From Pocillopora damicornis (taxonomy: Eukaryota): DNA of 64,000 nt. The notes beneath the pieces were generated by a model. It searched no databases. It saw nothing but the letters and a program-made list of their open reading frames with translations, and was not told the origin of the DNA. Below are positions 22,533 to 55,706 of the stretch, piece by piece (within the stretch, counting starts at the first letter, position 1; each line of letters opens with the position of its first letter). The stretch is taken from the NCBI RefSeq assembly GCF_003704095.1, contig NW_020843512.1:1-64000 (forward strand), read 5' to 3'. Both the position numbers and the translations under genes were made by a program.

Positions 22533-23387
22533 CTATTTACACAGTCCTTTAGCATGAAGAATTTCATCGAGAGCCCTTTGTAAAACAGATGCGTAATGTT
22601 CCTCAAGGCCTGCTGTACAAGGACCTTCAAAAGCTTGGAAAATTAAAGAAAGGATTCCAAACAACTTCCTCATATACTGTACTCTATAGGATGGATTTCG
22701 TGCCATGTCAGATTCGATGCCACGATTTACACCGTACTGAATAGTTGGTATGTTGGCCACTAAATGAGTCATGGTCCTAAGCTGTGGGTCGTGGGAAAAT
22801 GCAGCAGTACCGTTACAGTTGGACCCAGCTTGTTCCGTTGGTAGTGGCTGACTTACTGGTACTATTTGATGACTGCAAGCTTTAGAGCTTCTCACCAAAC
22901 AAGGGAATTTCTGAACGCATCGAGAACGCGCAGTACTCTCTTCCATACAATTATGTAAGCCAGGGATGTGTGTTTCTGATTCGTTTCCAAGACCCTGCAT
23001 TTCGTGGTCCCAACGATGCGGTTGTGATGCGGCAATCGGTTCGTCTTGAGGATCATTTTTCCCATCCAGTATGGCATGTGCACTGCTCTCTTCAGAAAAA
23101 AAGGCACCGTTGGAATCGTTGTCATCAGCAGGTATCTCCAGCACTCCTAGAAGGTCTTGCCACATCAGCTCCCTTTCATCTTCATTTGCAGAGCTCTCCA
23201 TTCCGCTATTTTGGAGCACGACGGTCTCTCCTCCAGACCTACGTTTGCCAGCTCGTCTGCCCTGTGCATTCATCTTCTTCATTTTAGAAAGCTTGGCGTT
23301 GATGCATATCGGATGAGGGCAGTCATTATTTGAACAAGGAATACAAGCATCGTGATTGGGATCTGCATGCAGGGATTTTTCAGCCAT
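22533..23387 (-). CDS. TAZ-zinc-site + NCBD-like family protein, copy 4 (284 aa)
   Basis: HDACIPCSNNDCPHPICINAK, basic RRAGKRR, acidic ELMWQDLLGVLE and C-terminal ILSLIFQAFEGPCTAGLEEHYASVLQRALDEI. Clearly paralogous along its length to 54747-55706. Confidence 0.85.
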   Translation of the reverse strand: MAEKSLHADPNHDACIPCSNNDCPHPICINAKLSKMKKMNAQGRRAGKRRSGGETVVLQNSGMESSANEDERELMWQDLLGVLEIPADDNDSNGAFFSEESSAHAILDGKNDPQDEPIAASQPHRWDHEMQGLGNESETHIPGLHNCMEESTARSRCVQKFPCLVRSSKACSHQIVPVSQPLPTEQAGSNCNGTAAFSHDPQLRTMTHLVANIPTIQYGVNRGIESDMARNPSYRVQYMRKLFGILSLIFQAFEGPCTAGLEEHYASVLQRALDEILHAKGLCK

Positions 23388-23482
23388 GAGTCTCCGATGC
23401 TTTCTCTAGTGAAAGAATGTTTATGTCAATTTCGTTCAGAAATTCCCTTGTTTGGAAGTGTTCTTAAAGTGGTCTAATTAAT

Positions 23483-24072
23483 GGAATAATTATCTGGGGA
23501 AATACCTAAGACCACTCTTCAACCAATTTTCATTTTACAAAAAAGAGCCATGCGATTAATTGCCTTTTCTAGATTTGATGAGCACTTAAGTCCTTTATTT
23601 AAATCTCTTGAAATTATAAATTCCTAGACCTAGTAACTTTCCATTTAGCAATCTTTATGTATAAATATCATAATCAATTATTGCCATCAGTCTTTAGTTC
23701 TTTTTTAAGTAAAATTTCGCAAATCCATTCCTATAATACAAGGCTTGGTGCAAAACAGTGTTATTATCTTCCAAAAGCAAGAACAAATTATGGTATATTC
23801 AATATCAGATTTCAAGGTCCATCAGTATGGAATTCCATTGACGAAGATATAAAATTATCTTCATTGTCTTTGTTTAAAAAGAAAGTAAAGCAGCAATTTA
23901 TCAAAGATTACTAGACATTGTATTGTCTGTGTAACTTTAAAATGGAAATAATACTGTTTTGCAATGTATGAATTTTAGTCTCTTTAATATACTGGTATTT
24001 TACCTTTGTGTGCGTTTCTGTATCTCTTTGTTTTTGTGTCCCTGACCTGAACATTTAAACATCTTTTCTTTC

Positions 24073-24120
<48 letters not shown>

Positions 24121-51925: not shown

Positions 51926-53271
51926 GATTGTAATCTCTTGAAATTACAAAATTTGGTAACACTGGGTTTTCCTTACTTGGCTGGCAATAGAATTTCAATG
52001 CTCGTGGATTCACTTTAGTATCGAATATTGGTGACGTTATTTCTATGATCAATGAGGTTATAGACAATGATTTGTTATCTTGATATGTAGTAACATGTAG
52101 AGATCAATCTTTAAATAACACCTTTTTAAACAAAATAATGGGTACGAATCATTTCAGGAAGGTACAGTCATATCGCAAGCTTAAGCCATTACAGGAAATA
52201 AAAGAGAATTTCAATAGAATTTGATTTTTCTACACGCAAGTTAACCTTGAGTTGAAAACTTAGCTCTGGAAAGGAAACTGAAGGAAATTAATTTTTGGTT
52301 TGGCTACCGCTTTGAGTGGCACGAATGCTAGACTTCGCTTGACAGTTGAAGACTGAAGGAAGCATATGAATTTCCAAATTACGCACGTCCTGTTAATCAC
52401 ATAAGCCGAATCTGGGCGATATCCGAATTACAAAATAACTTACACATGAAAATATTTCCGTATTGGGACTTCATCATTTGTTGAAATCCTCCAACAAACT
52501 TAAATCTGTTCTCTCAGAGAGAATCAGAGGTGTCTTCCTAAATATAAAATAGTCCATTCTATATTCTACATTGTCAATTCAATTAAAAAAAATAAAAATA
52601 AGTAAGTCGATGAACAAACATAAATAACACTCCCAGAGAATTTCCCTTCTATAACAGTGAAGTTAATTTTCATTTCTGACCCGTTAACCAAAAGAGGAAG
52701 ACTGATGAGTTATTAATAGCAGCAAGACTGTTTGTGTAATTGAAGTTACTTTTAGAAATACCCCACGCCCTTTCCTATCTGTGAATGCAAATAGCATCCA
52801 CTAATTTCCAATTTTAAATTCTATTCATAAATTCTGGACAGCGTGGGAGTAGTATTGTTTATTTCCCAATGTCCAGTTCAGTTTCCTTTGAACTGCACTG
52901 GATACGAAAACGCGAGAAAAAAACCCTTGGATGCCAAGGTGATCAGTTTTATTTACAAAGTTCCCTAAGCTTCACAATTTGACTTGTTCGGTAATATGTT
53001 ATACGTATCAGAAAACTCACTTTGTGTAGTATCAGAAAACTCACTCGTTCGCTGCGCTCACTCGTTCGTTTTCTGATACTACACAACTCGTGAATAAAAA
53101 TCGTACGCGCGCATTTTCCATGAAGTTATCTCTATAAGTATGATCACTGAGATCATCGATAACACTTAATACTCTGTATCCCACTACAAAGAATCAAGCC
53201 AGAGACCCTCGGATTTTCCGGTCCGATGCTCTACCAATCAGAACTAAACGGTAAATTACGAAAATGAGCAG

Positions 53272-54146
53272 GATTTCTTGACTTGAATCAGTGCTTTATG
53301 TAATAGATAAATTATGATTTGAGAAGAGGGGGTAGGTTTTTAAAGCAACTGTTGGTTCCGTAAAGAGTTTTAAAGCTGACCGCGTTCCGATCGTTAGCCC
53401 TTCGTCAGAGCGAATTATGTTACATTTGTTCTACATTCTCTCACTGAAATATTGTCTTATACGATTTTTGTCTGGATTTGAACGAGTCAAAGTCGAAATA
53501 TGTCCAGTGTTAACGATGACATATTTGTCCATACTTGACGCAAGAGTAAATGCATAATCGCCCTGACTATTCTCAAGACAAATGCATCAGTTATTTGCCT
53601 TCTAAGCAAATATTCACAATGTTTAACAAAACAAATTTCATGTCAGAATCACATTTGTAAAATAGTTATTTTTATCCAAATTTATCTTTTCACCTAGTGT
53701 AATTATTTGCAATTCCAGGATCACGAGCTCCGTTTTCTCTATCCTCTTAGTGATAACAGACAGCCCTGAAACGGCTTTGTTGTCTCGGTGAGACTGCAGT
53801 TTTGATGCTAAGTGAATCTGATCAATTGCCAAAGAACCCTCTCAGCTTTCTGTTTGCAATGGGAGCATTTCTTCGTGTTTTTAATGACCTGTCTGATTAG
53901 GAAGGATTCCGTGACTTCAAAGAGACATCTTCCGCTTCTTTTGTGATACTGGTCAAATAGAGTAAATATGAAGAATACAAGAACCCCGTGCTCGATAGTA
54001 CATAAGGAAGTACATTGTAGAGCCATTTTTTATTTCATCTATTTCTGTCTTGAGATTTCGTCCATCACTGTGTGGAGATTAAATCAATAGCTATGTTGGA
54101 GATAACATTGAGAATACGCTGCCGTCCATGTCGGTCTTGGACATGA
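53272..54146. repeat. About 870-bp segment inverted-duplicated at 61257-62133
   Basis: Near-identical reverse complement; duplicated short ORFs 53808-54026 and 61377-61595. Confidence 0.9.
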
Positions 54147-54746
54147 NNNNNNNNNNNNNNNNNNNNNNNNNNNNNNNNNNNNNNNNNNNNNNNNNNNNNN
54201 NNNNNNNNNNNNNNNNNNNNNNNNNNNNNNNNNNNNNNNNNNNNNNAGAAATTGCAAATTTGGTTTTTGATTCTCTATGAAATTGCTAATATACTCGATC
54301 TGTTACCTTAAATGGCCATGCCTGTCGTGTGATTCTGGACTGCATCAGCAAGGAAGTTAAATGAAAATGTCAGGTGTTGTTCAGCCACATTAATTTTCCC
54401 TGAATGAAATAGTTAGTCCCTCTAAAACAGTTATCACTAAGGCTTTAAGGGTTATTACAACCACATCACTAAAAATTCAGATGCCGGACCACGTCGACAT
54501 TGGCTTAAACATGTCACTTAAAATACCTATTTCGTATTATGGAGTGAAGCCAGTAAACCTGATTGAAGGGACGCTCATTTACTCTACCGTCATTGAATAA
54601 TTTCTTCCTCCGTTCCCTTGTTTTTAAACTATATAATTCATAGCACTCTAATTTTCTATAGAATGAACAGCTTCCTTAAGCTCTAGCGTGATGGAAAGTC
54701 ATTGTGTGTGTGATTGGAAACACATTACGGGCGACGAGGCCTGTCA

Positions 54747-55706
54747 TCATGATGAGAGTTTGCCACTAGACAGGCATTTCGCCTCCCAAATTTCATTCAA
54801 AGCCTTTTGTAATACATGTACACAATGTTCTTCAAGTTCTGCCATGCAAGGATCATCTAACGCTTGAAAAATTAAAGAAAGGATTGCAAACAACTTTCTA
54901 GTACAATTTACACGGTGGGATGGCTTACGTGCGATTTCACAGGCGTTCTCAAACTTCCTCGCCTTGAAATGTTCGTAAAGACTGCTTCGGACATTGGGTT
55001 TGTTGTTGTTGGAACCTTCCAACAAGCTTGATTCAAATCCCATTATTCCACACTCGCCACCATTCGCACAGTATTGCATTTGGGGGTGAGATGAGCTATT
55101 GGTGGCTTTCAGGGGAGCTCTGATCATAACTTGTGAATCATGCGACAGCGCAATAAAAGCAGACCGGCTGGGCTCAGTTTGTTCAGTCGCCAATGGCTGA
55201 CTTACGGAAAACAGTTGGCGATTGTAGGTTTCAATGCTTTTCACCAAACCAGAGGATCTTTGGACAGAGGGAGATCGAGGAATTGCATCACCCAACCAAT
55301 GAATTGCACCAAGAGGTTTTGCCTGTGATTGGTCTCCAACCAAATGCTTCTCGTAGCCTAAACGACATGATTGTAATGCAGGCATGGGTTGGTCTTGTCG
55401 ATGATTCCAATCATCCTGTATCGCATTCGCATGGGTGTCCTGAAATAAAGTAATGTTGTCGATACTTCCATCTGCAGGCTGCTCCAACACTCCAAGACTT
55501 TGAAGGTCCTGCCACCATAGTTCCATATTGTCCTCTGTGTCCGAAGCACTGTGAGACCTACGTTTGCGGTTAGCTACTCTGTGGTCTGTATCTGTTTTCA
55601 TTTTCCCAACTTTGGAGTTGATGCACATAGGAAGAGGACAGTCCCTTTCTGAACATGGAAGACCGGCTGGATGACTGAGATCTTCTTGCATGGATTTTGC
55701 AGCCAT
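54747..55706 (-). CDS. TAZ-zinc-site + NCBD-like family protein, copy 5 (319 aa)
   Basis: HPAGLPCSERDCPLPMCINSK, RKRR, ELWWQDLQSLGVLE and ILSLIFQALDDPCMAELEEHCVHVLQKALNEI. Acceptor TTCTTTTCTTCTCGCCAG lies shortly before the ATG. Confidence 0.85.
   Translation of the reverse strand: MAAKSMQEDLSHPAGLPCSERDCPLPMCINSKVGKMKTDTDHRVANRKRRSHSASDTEDNMELWWQDLQSLGVLEQPADGSIDNITLFQDTHANAIQDDWNHRQDQPMPALQSCRLGYEKHLVGDQSQAKPLGAIHWLGDAIPRSPSVQRSSGLVKSIETYNRQLFSVSQPLATEQTEPSRSAFIALSHDSQVMIRAPLKATNSSSHPQMQYCANGGECGIMGFESSLLEGSNNNKPNVRSSLYEHFKARKFENACEIARKPSHRVNCTRKLFAILSLIFQALDDPCMAELEEHCVHVLQKALNEIWEAKCLSSGKLSS

What the first reader, a model, noticed from the sequence alone, without database searches (positions are those of the whole stretch)
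22533..55706. IL-17 cluster is nested inside the mini-CBP cluster: candidate co-regulated immune locus
Seen: all four IL-17-like genes lie between copies 4 and 5, the two most similar intact paralogs, and no other host gene is evident in the 64 kb. The IL-17 promoters carry kB-, IRF- and C/EBP-like motifs, the same factor classes that dock on CBP TAZ/NCBD domains. kB/CRE motifs also occur near mini-CBP genes (4353-4478, 23438-23447, 56602-56609). Inference: a cytokine plus feedback-regulator module, analogous in logic to CITED2 competing at CBP/p300. Linkage could also be chance co-location in a duplication-prone region.
Basis: inference. Interest (0 to 1): 0.72.

Follow-up and report, generated by a model that had tools for sequence, protein, structure and literature searches.

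The report
Coral IL-17-like genes amid CBP fragments
In stony corals, a row of signalling-protein genes resembling interleukin-17 sits among a family of cut-down relatives of the gene-activating protein CBP; the neighbourhood is old and real, but nothing yet shows that the two families work together.

Summary
The window is Pocillopora DNA. Three complete IL-17-like genes and a fourth cut by an assembly gap lie between E and F, the two most alike of five intact short proteins derived from CBP/p300 TAZ2 (a sixth copy is broken). The linkage is old. It is seen in three Pocillopora species and Desmophyllum, as DNA in locus L005, and on 5 of 7 long contigs carrying a D- or F-type hit. But coral microsynteny is generally high, so linkage does not show co-regulation. 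A divergent IL-17-like gene probably lies beyond F, so the arrays look interleaved, not nested. kB-like motifs occur at chance rate (66 seen, 66.6 expected). IRF-type sites recur only at IL-17-like promoters. One cited kB site lies just before a splice acceptor, inside a 23-bp inverted copy of coding sequence. Both labels need care. The window's 'mini-CBPs' keep at most two of three TAZ2 zinc sites, have no HAT, and show only a weak NCBD resemblance. The 'IL-17s' lack the terminal CxC knot cysteines. Verdict: a real, conserved neighbourhood of two coral families I could not find described; the feedback module is unshown.

The parts
1679..2674 (-). Copy A, 331 aa TAZ2-derived protein: one zinc knuckle, acidic helix, C-terminal helical pair
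   Evidence: (zf-TAZ E 0.12); relative P0136 70% identical
12537..13667 (+). Copy B, 376 aa: no zinc knuckle; keeps acidic helix and helical pair
   Evidence: relative P0140 59% identical
15181..16007 (-). Copy C, broken B-type paralog (three frames, in-frame stops), lying inside D's last exon
15188..16063 (-). D 3' untranslated exon (intron 16064-16722, CT..AC on the + strand)
   Evidence: joint in 4 of 4 RNA runs
16740..17882 (-). Copy D coding sequence, 380 aa: TAZ2 zinc sites 1-2, helical pair about 187-236, conserved acidic C-terminal helix
19322..19446 (-). D 5' untranslated exon (intron 17883-19321)
   Evidence: joint in 3 of 4 RNA runs
19974..21704 (.). Stretch covered by RNA-library contigs, no ATG ORF over 52 aa; long 3' UTR of E or a separate non-coding RNA; strand unknown
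22533..23387 (-).
   Evidence: relative P0135 72% identical
22895..23455 (.).
23612..23914 (+). Retrotransposon-like remnant, 35% identical to 32214-32705 (LINE 3' end by recall; no Pfam hit)
33407..34465 (-). I1, IL-17-like, 143 aa: inferred 7-codon exon 34445-34465 and main exon 33407-33817
   Evidence: splice inferred from conserved structure
38869..38907 (-). I4, last 12 codons and stop of an IL-17-like gene; the rest falls in the gap 38908-39007
39607..50854 (.). Inverted duplication, arms 39607-45120 and 45787-50854 (79-91% identical) around the gap 45687-45786; places I2 and I3 head to head
40060..41381 (-). I2, IL-17-like, 146 aa: exon 41361-41381 and main exon 40060-40479; IRF-type site at 41554-41563
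49011..50358 (+). I3, IL-17-like, 146 aa: exon 49011-49031 and main exon 49939-50358; TATA 114 nt upstream, IRF-type site 48832-48841, exact kB site in the intron at 49582 in a segment absent from I2
   Evidence: (XP_027041392.1 has this two-exon form)
54747..55706 (-).

Best explanation
Two unrelated coral gene families expanded by tandem duplication in one old neighbourhood and stay together through ordinary coral microsynteny. Family 1 arose by partial duplication of the C-terminal part of CBP/p300 (shown for TAZ2; weakly suggested for NCBD). It then lost TAZ2 stepwise while keeping a helix-turn-helix pair and an acidic amphipathic helix. These are most likely nuclear cofactors without acetyltransferase activity that bind transcription factors or coactivators through those helices (inferred). 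Family 2 encodes secreted proteins of IL-17 descent with a reduced cystine knot, probably inducible through IRF-type sites next to a TATA box (inferred). In pocilloporids the IL-17-like genes multiplied in place between E and F, last by the inverted duplication that gave I2 and I3 (shown). Each family probably has its own promoters.
For: TAZ2 origin: D hits p300 TAZ2 at E 7e-6; relative P0188 hits TAZ2 at 5e-12 and TAZ1 at 0.2 or worse; profile match to CBP TAZ2, probability 96%. Stepwise loss among 95 family proteins: three zinc sites in 3, two or more in 17, a knuckle pattern in 54, the helical pair in 87. In-place expansion: I1, I2, I3 and P0042 group with the paralogs of one related contig in a 16-row clade, support 95/90; inverted arms. 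Old linkage. Background: syntenic blocks cover at least 75% of Porites and Pocillopora genomes, and about a third of genes are tandem duplicates (PMC10236652, passages). No motif shared by both families beyond chance. Each family has members without a shown partner: 24 of 25 IL-17-like loci hold no TAZ2-family gene (mostly too short to tell; 3 are 10.8-11.7 kb), and L011 has other neighbours.
Against: The I3-to-F tail-to-tail junction recurs in L005 at 2.4 kb, with an IL-17-like gene only 66% identical to I3, so the contact is tight and old. CRE sites are above a Markov expectation (6 v 0.8) and two lie upstream of A and F. A's inferred promoter has 4 relaxed kB sites in 1 kb against a mean of 1.0. 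No quantitative expression data were available, so co-induction is untested, not excluded. The function of family 1 is inferred from anatomy and one precedent.
Confidence: 0.55

Rival explanations
1. One reading: a co-regulated immune locus in which an inducible cytokine array and CBP-derived decoys share NF-kB/IRF control, the decoys damping the response by competing at or with CBP.
For: Linkage in several genera. IRF-type sites in 7 of 13 IL-17-like promoters v 6.5% background. All five intact proteins carry an acidic hydrophobic segment, and D's C-terminal acidic helix is nearly invariant from Pocillopora to Montipora. The helical pair aligns without gaps to NCBD helices 1-2 (27 columns, pairwise E 0.003), and the top 5 of 86 windows from three CBP proteins overlap the NCBD. 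HAT-less C. elegans CBP-2 and CBP-3 affect promoters (PMC10320766, passages).
Against: kB-like sites at chance; exact kB in 0 of 13 IL-17-like promoters; D's promoter lacks IRF and CRE sites; one cited site belongs to an inverted copy of coding sequence. No intact TAZ2 in the window. The NCBD match does not beat shuffled controls by HMM score and is absent from PDB and Pfam searches. A divergent IL-17-like record lies six accessions past F in P. meandrina.
Confidence: 0.22
2. Linked and co-expressed, but not for immunity: the secreted proteins are growth-factor-like ligands of the wider cystine-knot superfamily, and the locus serves a cell type or a developmental step.
For: IL-17 membership is incomplete: no terminal CxC, Pfam score below cut-off. 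Atlas neighbours include mixed IL17/NGF/Spaetzle/Noggin clusters at 0.88-0.91. D is spliced in runs from four different studies.
Against: IL-17 is the best match by every method: Pfam in 52 of 52 members, 22 of 23 PDB rows though at E 0.36 or worse, 23 of 30 Atlas hits, best 0.92. IRF-type promoter sites.
Confidence: 0.15
3. The nesting is an assembly artefact or a recent chance event: contigs joined across N gaps, I2 and I3 being two alleles.
For: Six 100-N gaps lie between E and F, several flanked by inverted copies, one at the centre of the I2/I3 inversion.
Against: I3-type and F-type records are two accessions apart in P. meandrina, and I2- and I3-type proteins share one 24,164-base contig. 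The arms differ by 9-21%. L005 shows the junction on one contig; L003 shows a head-to-head IL-17-like pair.
Confidence: 0.05

Closest known systems
C. elegans cbp-2 and cbp-3 (partial duplicates of cbp-1)
   Same: Short, HAT-less CBP paralogs made by partial duplication, clustered, expressed, and affecting promoter activity (PMC10320766, passages).
   Different: They keep the N-terminal zinc finger, with or without KIX, and lie within 160 kb of cbp-1. The coral family comes from TAZ2, spans about 80 clusters at 50% identity (83 of 86 hits), mostly loses the finger and keeps a separate helical pair.
CBP/p300 (KAT3) C-terminal region, TAZ2 to NCBD
   Same: TAZ2 homology, then a low-complexity linker, then a helical motif in the NCBD position.
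   Different: No HAT, bromodomain, KIX or ZZ; TAZ2 incomplete in all window copies; the third NCBD helix is not matched. One source states that cnidarians have a single CBP/p300 homologue (10.1101/2020.09.08.287045, passages).
Invertebrate IL-17 family (PF06083)
   Same: Hydrophobic N-terminus, CPW motif, about 145 aa, two exons, tandem array; 11 IL-17 genes are already reported in P. damicornis (PMC8353272, section 13).
   Different: Terminal CxC replaced by hydrophobic residues; Pfam match covers only positions 1-30 of 81 and stays under the cut-off. I could not tell whether these genes are among the 11 reported.
CITED2
   Same: Mostly disordered protein with an acidic amphipathic C-terminal helix (D type).
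   Different: No CITED family hit. CITED2 is a ligand of TAZ1 (PMC12262211, start of abstract); these proteins descend from TAZ2 itself.

Membership tests
CBP/p300 (KAT3) | HAT domain, bromodomain, KIX | tested here: not met
   No such Pfam hit in A, B, D, E, F (284-380 aa) or their aligned relatives; true CBPs do show HAT, and one shows a bromodomain
CBP/p300 (KAT3) | Sequence homology to TAZ2 | tested here: met
   D: PDB E 7e-6; A/B/E/F profile E 0.004; P0188 E 5e-12, TAZ1 0.2 or worse
CBP/p300 (KAT3) | Complete TAZ with three zinc sites | tested here: not met
   D two sites (chain residues 9-64 only), A/E/F one knuckle, B none; complete in 3 of 95 relatives
CBP/p300 (KAT3) | NCBD (PF09030), three helices | tested here: inconclusive
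   Gapless 27-column match to helices 1-2, pairwise E 0.003, top 5 of 86 windows; not above shuffles; no PDB or Pfam hit
IL-17 | N-terminal signal peptide | tested here: met
   Hydrophobic stretch after a 7-codon exon in I1-I3, judged by eye; confident helix 2-16 in the model; no dedicated predictor was run
IL-17 | CPW motif opening the domain | tested here: met
   P invariant, C and W in at least 90% of 52 rows; motif named in PMC8353272
IL-17 | PF06083 at the gathering score of 24 bits | tested here: not met
   22.3, 18.9 and 20.8 bits for I1-I3; 52 of 52 members match, best E 1.2e-4
IL-17 | C-terminal CxC cysteines of the cystine knot (their position is recalled) | tested here: not met
   Absent in 53 of 54 relatives; the one flagged lies in an unconserved tail; window cysteines at 27, 79, 101, 104, 108, 122
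IL-17 | Cystine-knot fold | tested here: inconclusive
   Model pLDDT 48 with a long C-terminal hairpin; top Foldseek row IL-17A at E 2.1; VIA wide found none
IL-17 | Dimer signalling through a SEFIR receptor | not testable with these tools
   Needs a receptor assay
CITED-type competitor | CITED domain | tested here: not met
   No hit
CITED-type competitor | Binds a CBP TAZ domain and displaces a factor | not testable with these tools
   Needs a binding assay; the sequence shows only a conserved acidic helix
Co-regulated gene cluster | Linkage kept across species | tested here: met
   not shown for Porites, Acropora or Montipora
Co-regulated gene cluster | Promoter motifs shared by both families above chance | tested here: not met
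   only D's start is known from RNA
Co-regulated gene cluster | Correlated induction | not testable with these tools
   Only assembled contigs were served; no expression table was found

The most novel reading that the evidence does not exclude
Stony corals built a dedicated locus in which an IL-17 offshoot with a remodelled knot is co-induced with a coral-wide family of HAT-less TAZ2/NCBD derivatives. Their helical pair would capture IRF- or p53-class factors and their acidic helix would occupy CBP, giving corals a cytokine-plus-brake module with no counterpart found in my searches.
Probability: 0.18. Interest if true: 0.78.

Novelty: new variant of a known kind. Interest (0 to 1): 0.42.

Why it matters
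The claimed module is unshown, but two things stand. First, a large family of CBP-derived cofactors is spread over robust and complex corals (named records in Pocillopora, Desmophyllum, Montipora, Acropora), shows a graded loss of TAZ2, and is labelled 'uncharacterized' or 'hypothetical' in most named records. Second, an IL-17-like lineage lacks the terminal knot cysteines and has a conserved two-exon, TATA-box gene structure. Coral RNA-seq studies would count both as dark genes. The gene models here make the co-induction question testable with existing Pocillopora challenge and single-cell data.

Tried and rejected
No whole genome was held, so motif background and family counts could not be taken genome-wide. 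Predicted complex of D residues 345-380 with a CBP TAZ2 domain (P0210 52-140) and zinc: no answer, score 0.01; no evidence either way. Atlas search of the helical pair of P0188: no usable hit. AlphaFold models were weak (D pLDDT 39.8, I3 47.9) and three fold searches found nothing at E 0.001 or Z 2. RNA cover of I1: depth in 1 of 4 runs (X10) and none in X1, X8, X17; these runs were picked for holding 16500-23500 and are contigs, so the gap is no evidence on co-expression; 4 of 22 listed runs were laid, on 14500-34499 only. Locus tags near I3 gave 0 hits in full text and in the held supplements of six papers; five of these sets were small files, and the full expression tables, which I could not see, may decide the question. 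Earlier findings of the scan: none. Rejected: 'intronless retrogenes' (D is spliced; acceptor-like sites precede every ATG); a TAZ1 origin; a further decayed paralog in 19974-21704 (no profile hit at E 2); I2 and I3 as alleles.
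Full report
SOURCE. The window is stony-coral DNA. A named Pocillopora damicornis record (RMX60787.1) is 100% identical to I3 over its main exon and lies on a 64,628-base contig; P. verrucosa and P. meandrina records match D and F at about 98%. No whole genome was held. The window has eight 100-N gaps and one of 10.

ANATOMY. Family 1 has five intact ORFs (A, B, D, E, F; 284-380 aa) and one broken copy, C. RNA contigs show that D has three exons: a 5' untranslated exon at 19322-19446 (joint in 3 of 4 runs), the coding exon, and a 3' exon at 15188-16063 (4 of 4) that runs over the broken copy C. 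Acceptor-like sites sit just before the ATG of A, B, E and F, so their promoters are probably further upstream; this is inferred. Family 2 has three complete genes and a 12-codon end cut by a gap. All four lie between E and F, the closest pair (124/270 identical). I2 and I3 are the arms of an inverted duplication, 79-91% identical. Each complete gene has a 7-codon first exon; a TATA box lies 114-117 nt upstream in I1 and I3 and is altered in I2. A candidate short first exon was found in 12 of 17 upstream regions from other corals, the 5 misses having at most 1.4 kb of upstream DNA.

WHAT FAMILY 1 IS. D matches p300 TAZ2 over chain residues 9-64 (E 7e-6), that is zinc sites 1 and 2 without the third site or the last helices. 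A profile search of 1.84 billion proteins returned 86 hits, three of them true CBP/p300 proteins. Among 95 family proteins (the three CBPs dropped), 3 have all three zinc sites, 17 at least two, 54 a knuckle pattern, and 87 the C-terminal helical pair. P0188, with a whole finger, hits TAZ2 at 5e-12 and TAZ1 at 0.2 or worse. Named members come from Pocillopora, Desmophyllum, Montipora and Acropora, and D- and B-type records are neighbours in Montipora. The helical pair aligns without gaps to NCBD helices 1-2 (27 columns, probability 9.5%, pairwise E 0.003), and the five best of 86 windows from the three CBPs overlap the NCBD. Against this, HMM scores do not beat shuffles, only 1 of 14 pairwise shuffle tests reached p under 0.05, and no NCBD entry appears in PDB or Pfam searches. 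So a TAZ2 origin is shown, an NCBD origin only suggested. NCBD is present in cnidarian CBP (PMC5419745, passages). The retained core is the helical pair plus an acidic hydrophobic segment; B, D, E and F also have a basic cluster. The closest precedent is C. elegans cbp-2 and cbp-3 (PMC10320766, passages).

WHAT FAMILY 2 IS. IL-17 is the best match by Pfam (52 of 52 members, best E 1.2e-4), by PDB profile (22 of 23 rows, all E 0.36 or worse) and in the Atlas (best 0.92, with a recognition value under the tool's mark). The window proteins stay under Pfam's cut-off, and the terminal CxC is missing. An older survey found no cnidarian IL-17 (PMC4517768, passages); a later one reports 11 in P. damicornis and notes tandem arrays as common (PMC8353272, passages and section 13). 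They are best called IL-17-like.

LINKAGE. Of 7 distinct contigs over 90 kb that carry a D- or F-type hit, 5 share their exact length with a contig carrying an IL-17-like hit; equal length stands in for same contig. Named cases: Desmophyllum OS493_023148 and _023153; P. meandrina CAH3045566 and CAH3045568; P. verrucosa, same 22-Mb sequence. Locus L005 shows it as DNA: an IL-17-like gene 66% identical to I3 and an E/F-type gene tail to tail, 2.4 kb apart, as I3 and F are here; it is 1 of 25 loci, most too short to test. A deeply divergent IL-17-like protein is CAH3045574 on the same P. meandrina contig, six accessions past F; if accessions follow gene order, which I did not verify, the arrays are interleaved. 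Porites has IL-17-like arrays; no link to family 1 was shown there or in Acroporidae. Since syntenic blocks cover at least 75% of Porites and Pocillopora genomes (PMC10236652, passages), kept linkage is expected without selection on the pair.

REGULATION. Relaxed kB sites: 66 seen, 66.6 expected; C/EBP below expectation; CRE 6 v 0.8, but two are coding and two are one duplicated repeat. In 13 IL-17-like promoters, IRF-type sites occur in 7 (background 6.5%), relaxed kB in 6 (22%), exact kB in 0; four of the positives are one subclade and I2/I3 one duplication. D's upstream kilobase has no IRF or CRE site. The motif patterns themselves are recalled consensus sequences. Expression levels could not be measured.

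LITERATURE. Ten searches, seen as listings with the start of each abstract, showed no paper on a coral TAZ2-derived family or on this locus; a paper on coral dark genes has no TAZ, CBP or interleukin term in its main text (PMC13044578, term search). The library lacks most subscription journals, and expression tables in supplements I could not see may bear on co-induction.

VERDICT. Observation partly confirmed; interpretation partly supported. Best reading: two tandem families in an old shared neighbourhood, 0.55; co-regulated immune module, 0.22; linked but non-immune, 0.15; artefact, 0.05. New variant of a known kind; interest 0.42, carried by the two families more than by the nesting.

Noticed in passing
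window 15181-16063: A broken B-type paralog now forms the 3' untranslated exon of gene D, behind an intron that starts 17 nt after D's stop codon.
   Followed up: yes
window 22895-22917 and 23433-23455: Perfect 23-bp inverted repeat joining E's coding sequence to the stretch before its inferred splice acceptor; could pair in the pre-mRNA or be a template-switch copy. Not present at F.
   Followed up: partly
window 19974-21704: Covered by RNA-library contigs in 4 of 4 runs, no long ORF, strand unknown: long 3' UTR of E or a transcript divergent from D.
   Followed up: partly
window 62611-63751: OTU-domain ORF (Pfam E 5e-10) preceded by a 2A-like motif; probably a non-LTR retrotransposon (label recalled, not tested).
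   Followed up: no
window 37768-38404 and 39028-39257: 75-bp tandem array (8.4 copies) with an inverted partial copy across the gap that cuts the fourth IL-17-like gene.
   Followed up: partly
window 49582-49591: An exact kB site in I3's intron, inside a short segment that I2 lacks.
   Followed up: partly
window 14927-15113; 24795-26709; 53270-62136: A palindromic element between the converging ends of B and D, an element with about 430-bp inverted ends, and an 880-bp inverted copy across two gaps.
   Followed up: no
L011 2427-3227 and 4626-5270: An IL-17-like gene whose neighbours are two cysteine-rich ORFs, not TAZ2-family genes.
   Followed up: no
proteins P0188, P0169, P0204: Family members with a complete three-zinc TAZ2 plus the helical pair: the likely link between CBP and the reduced copies; organisms unnamed.
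   Followed up: partly
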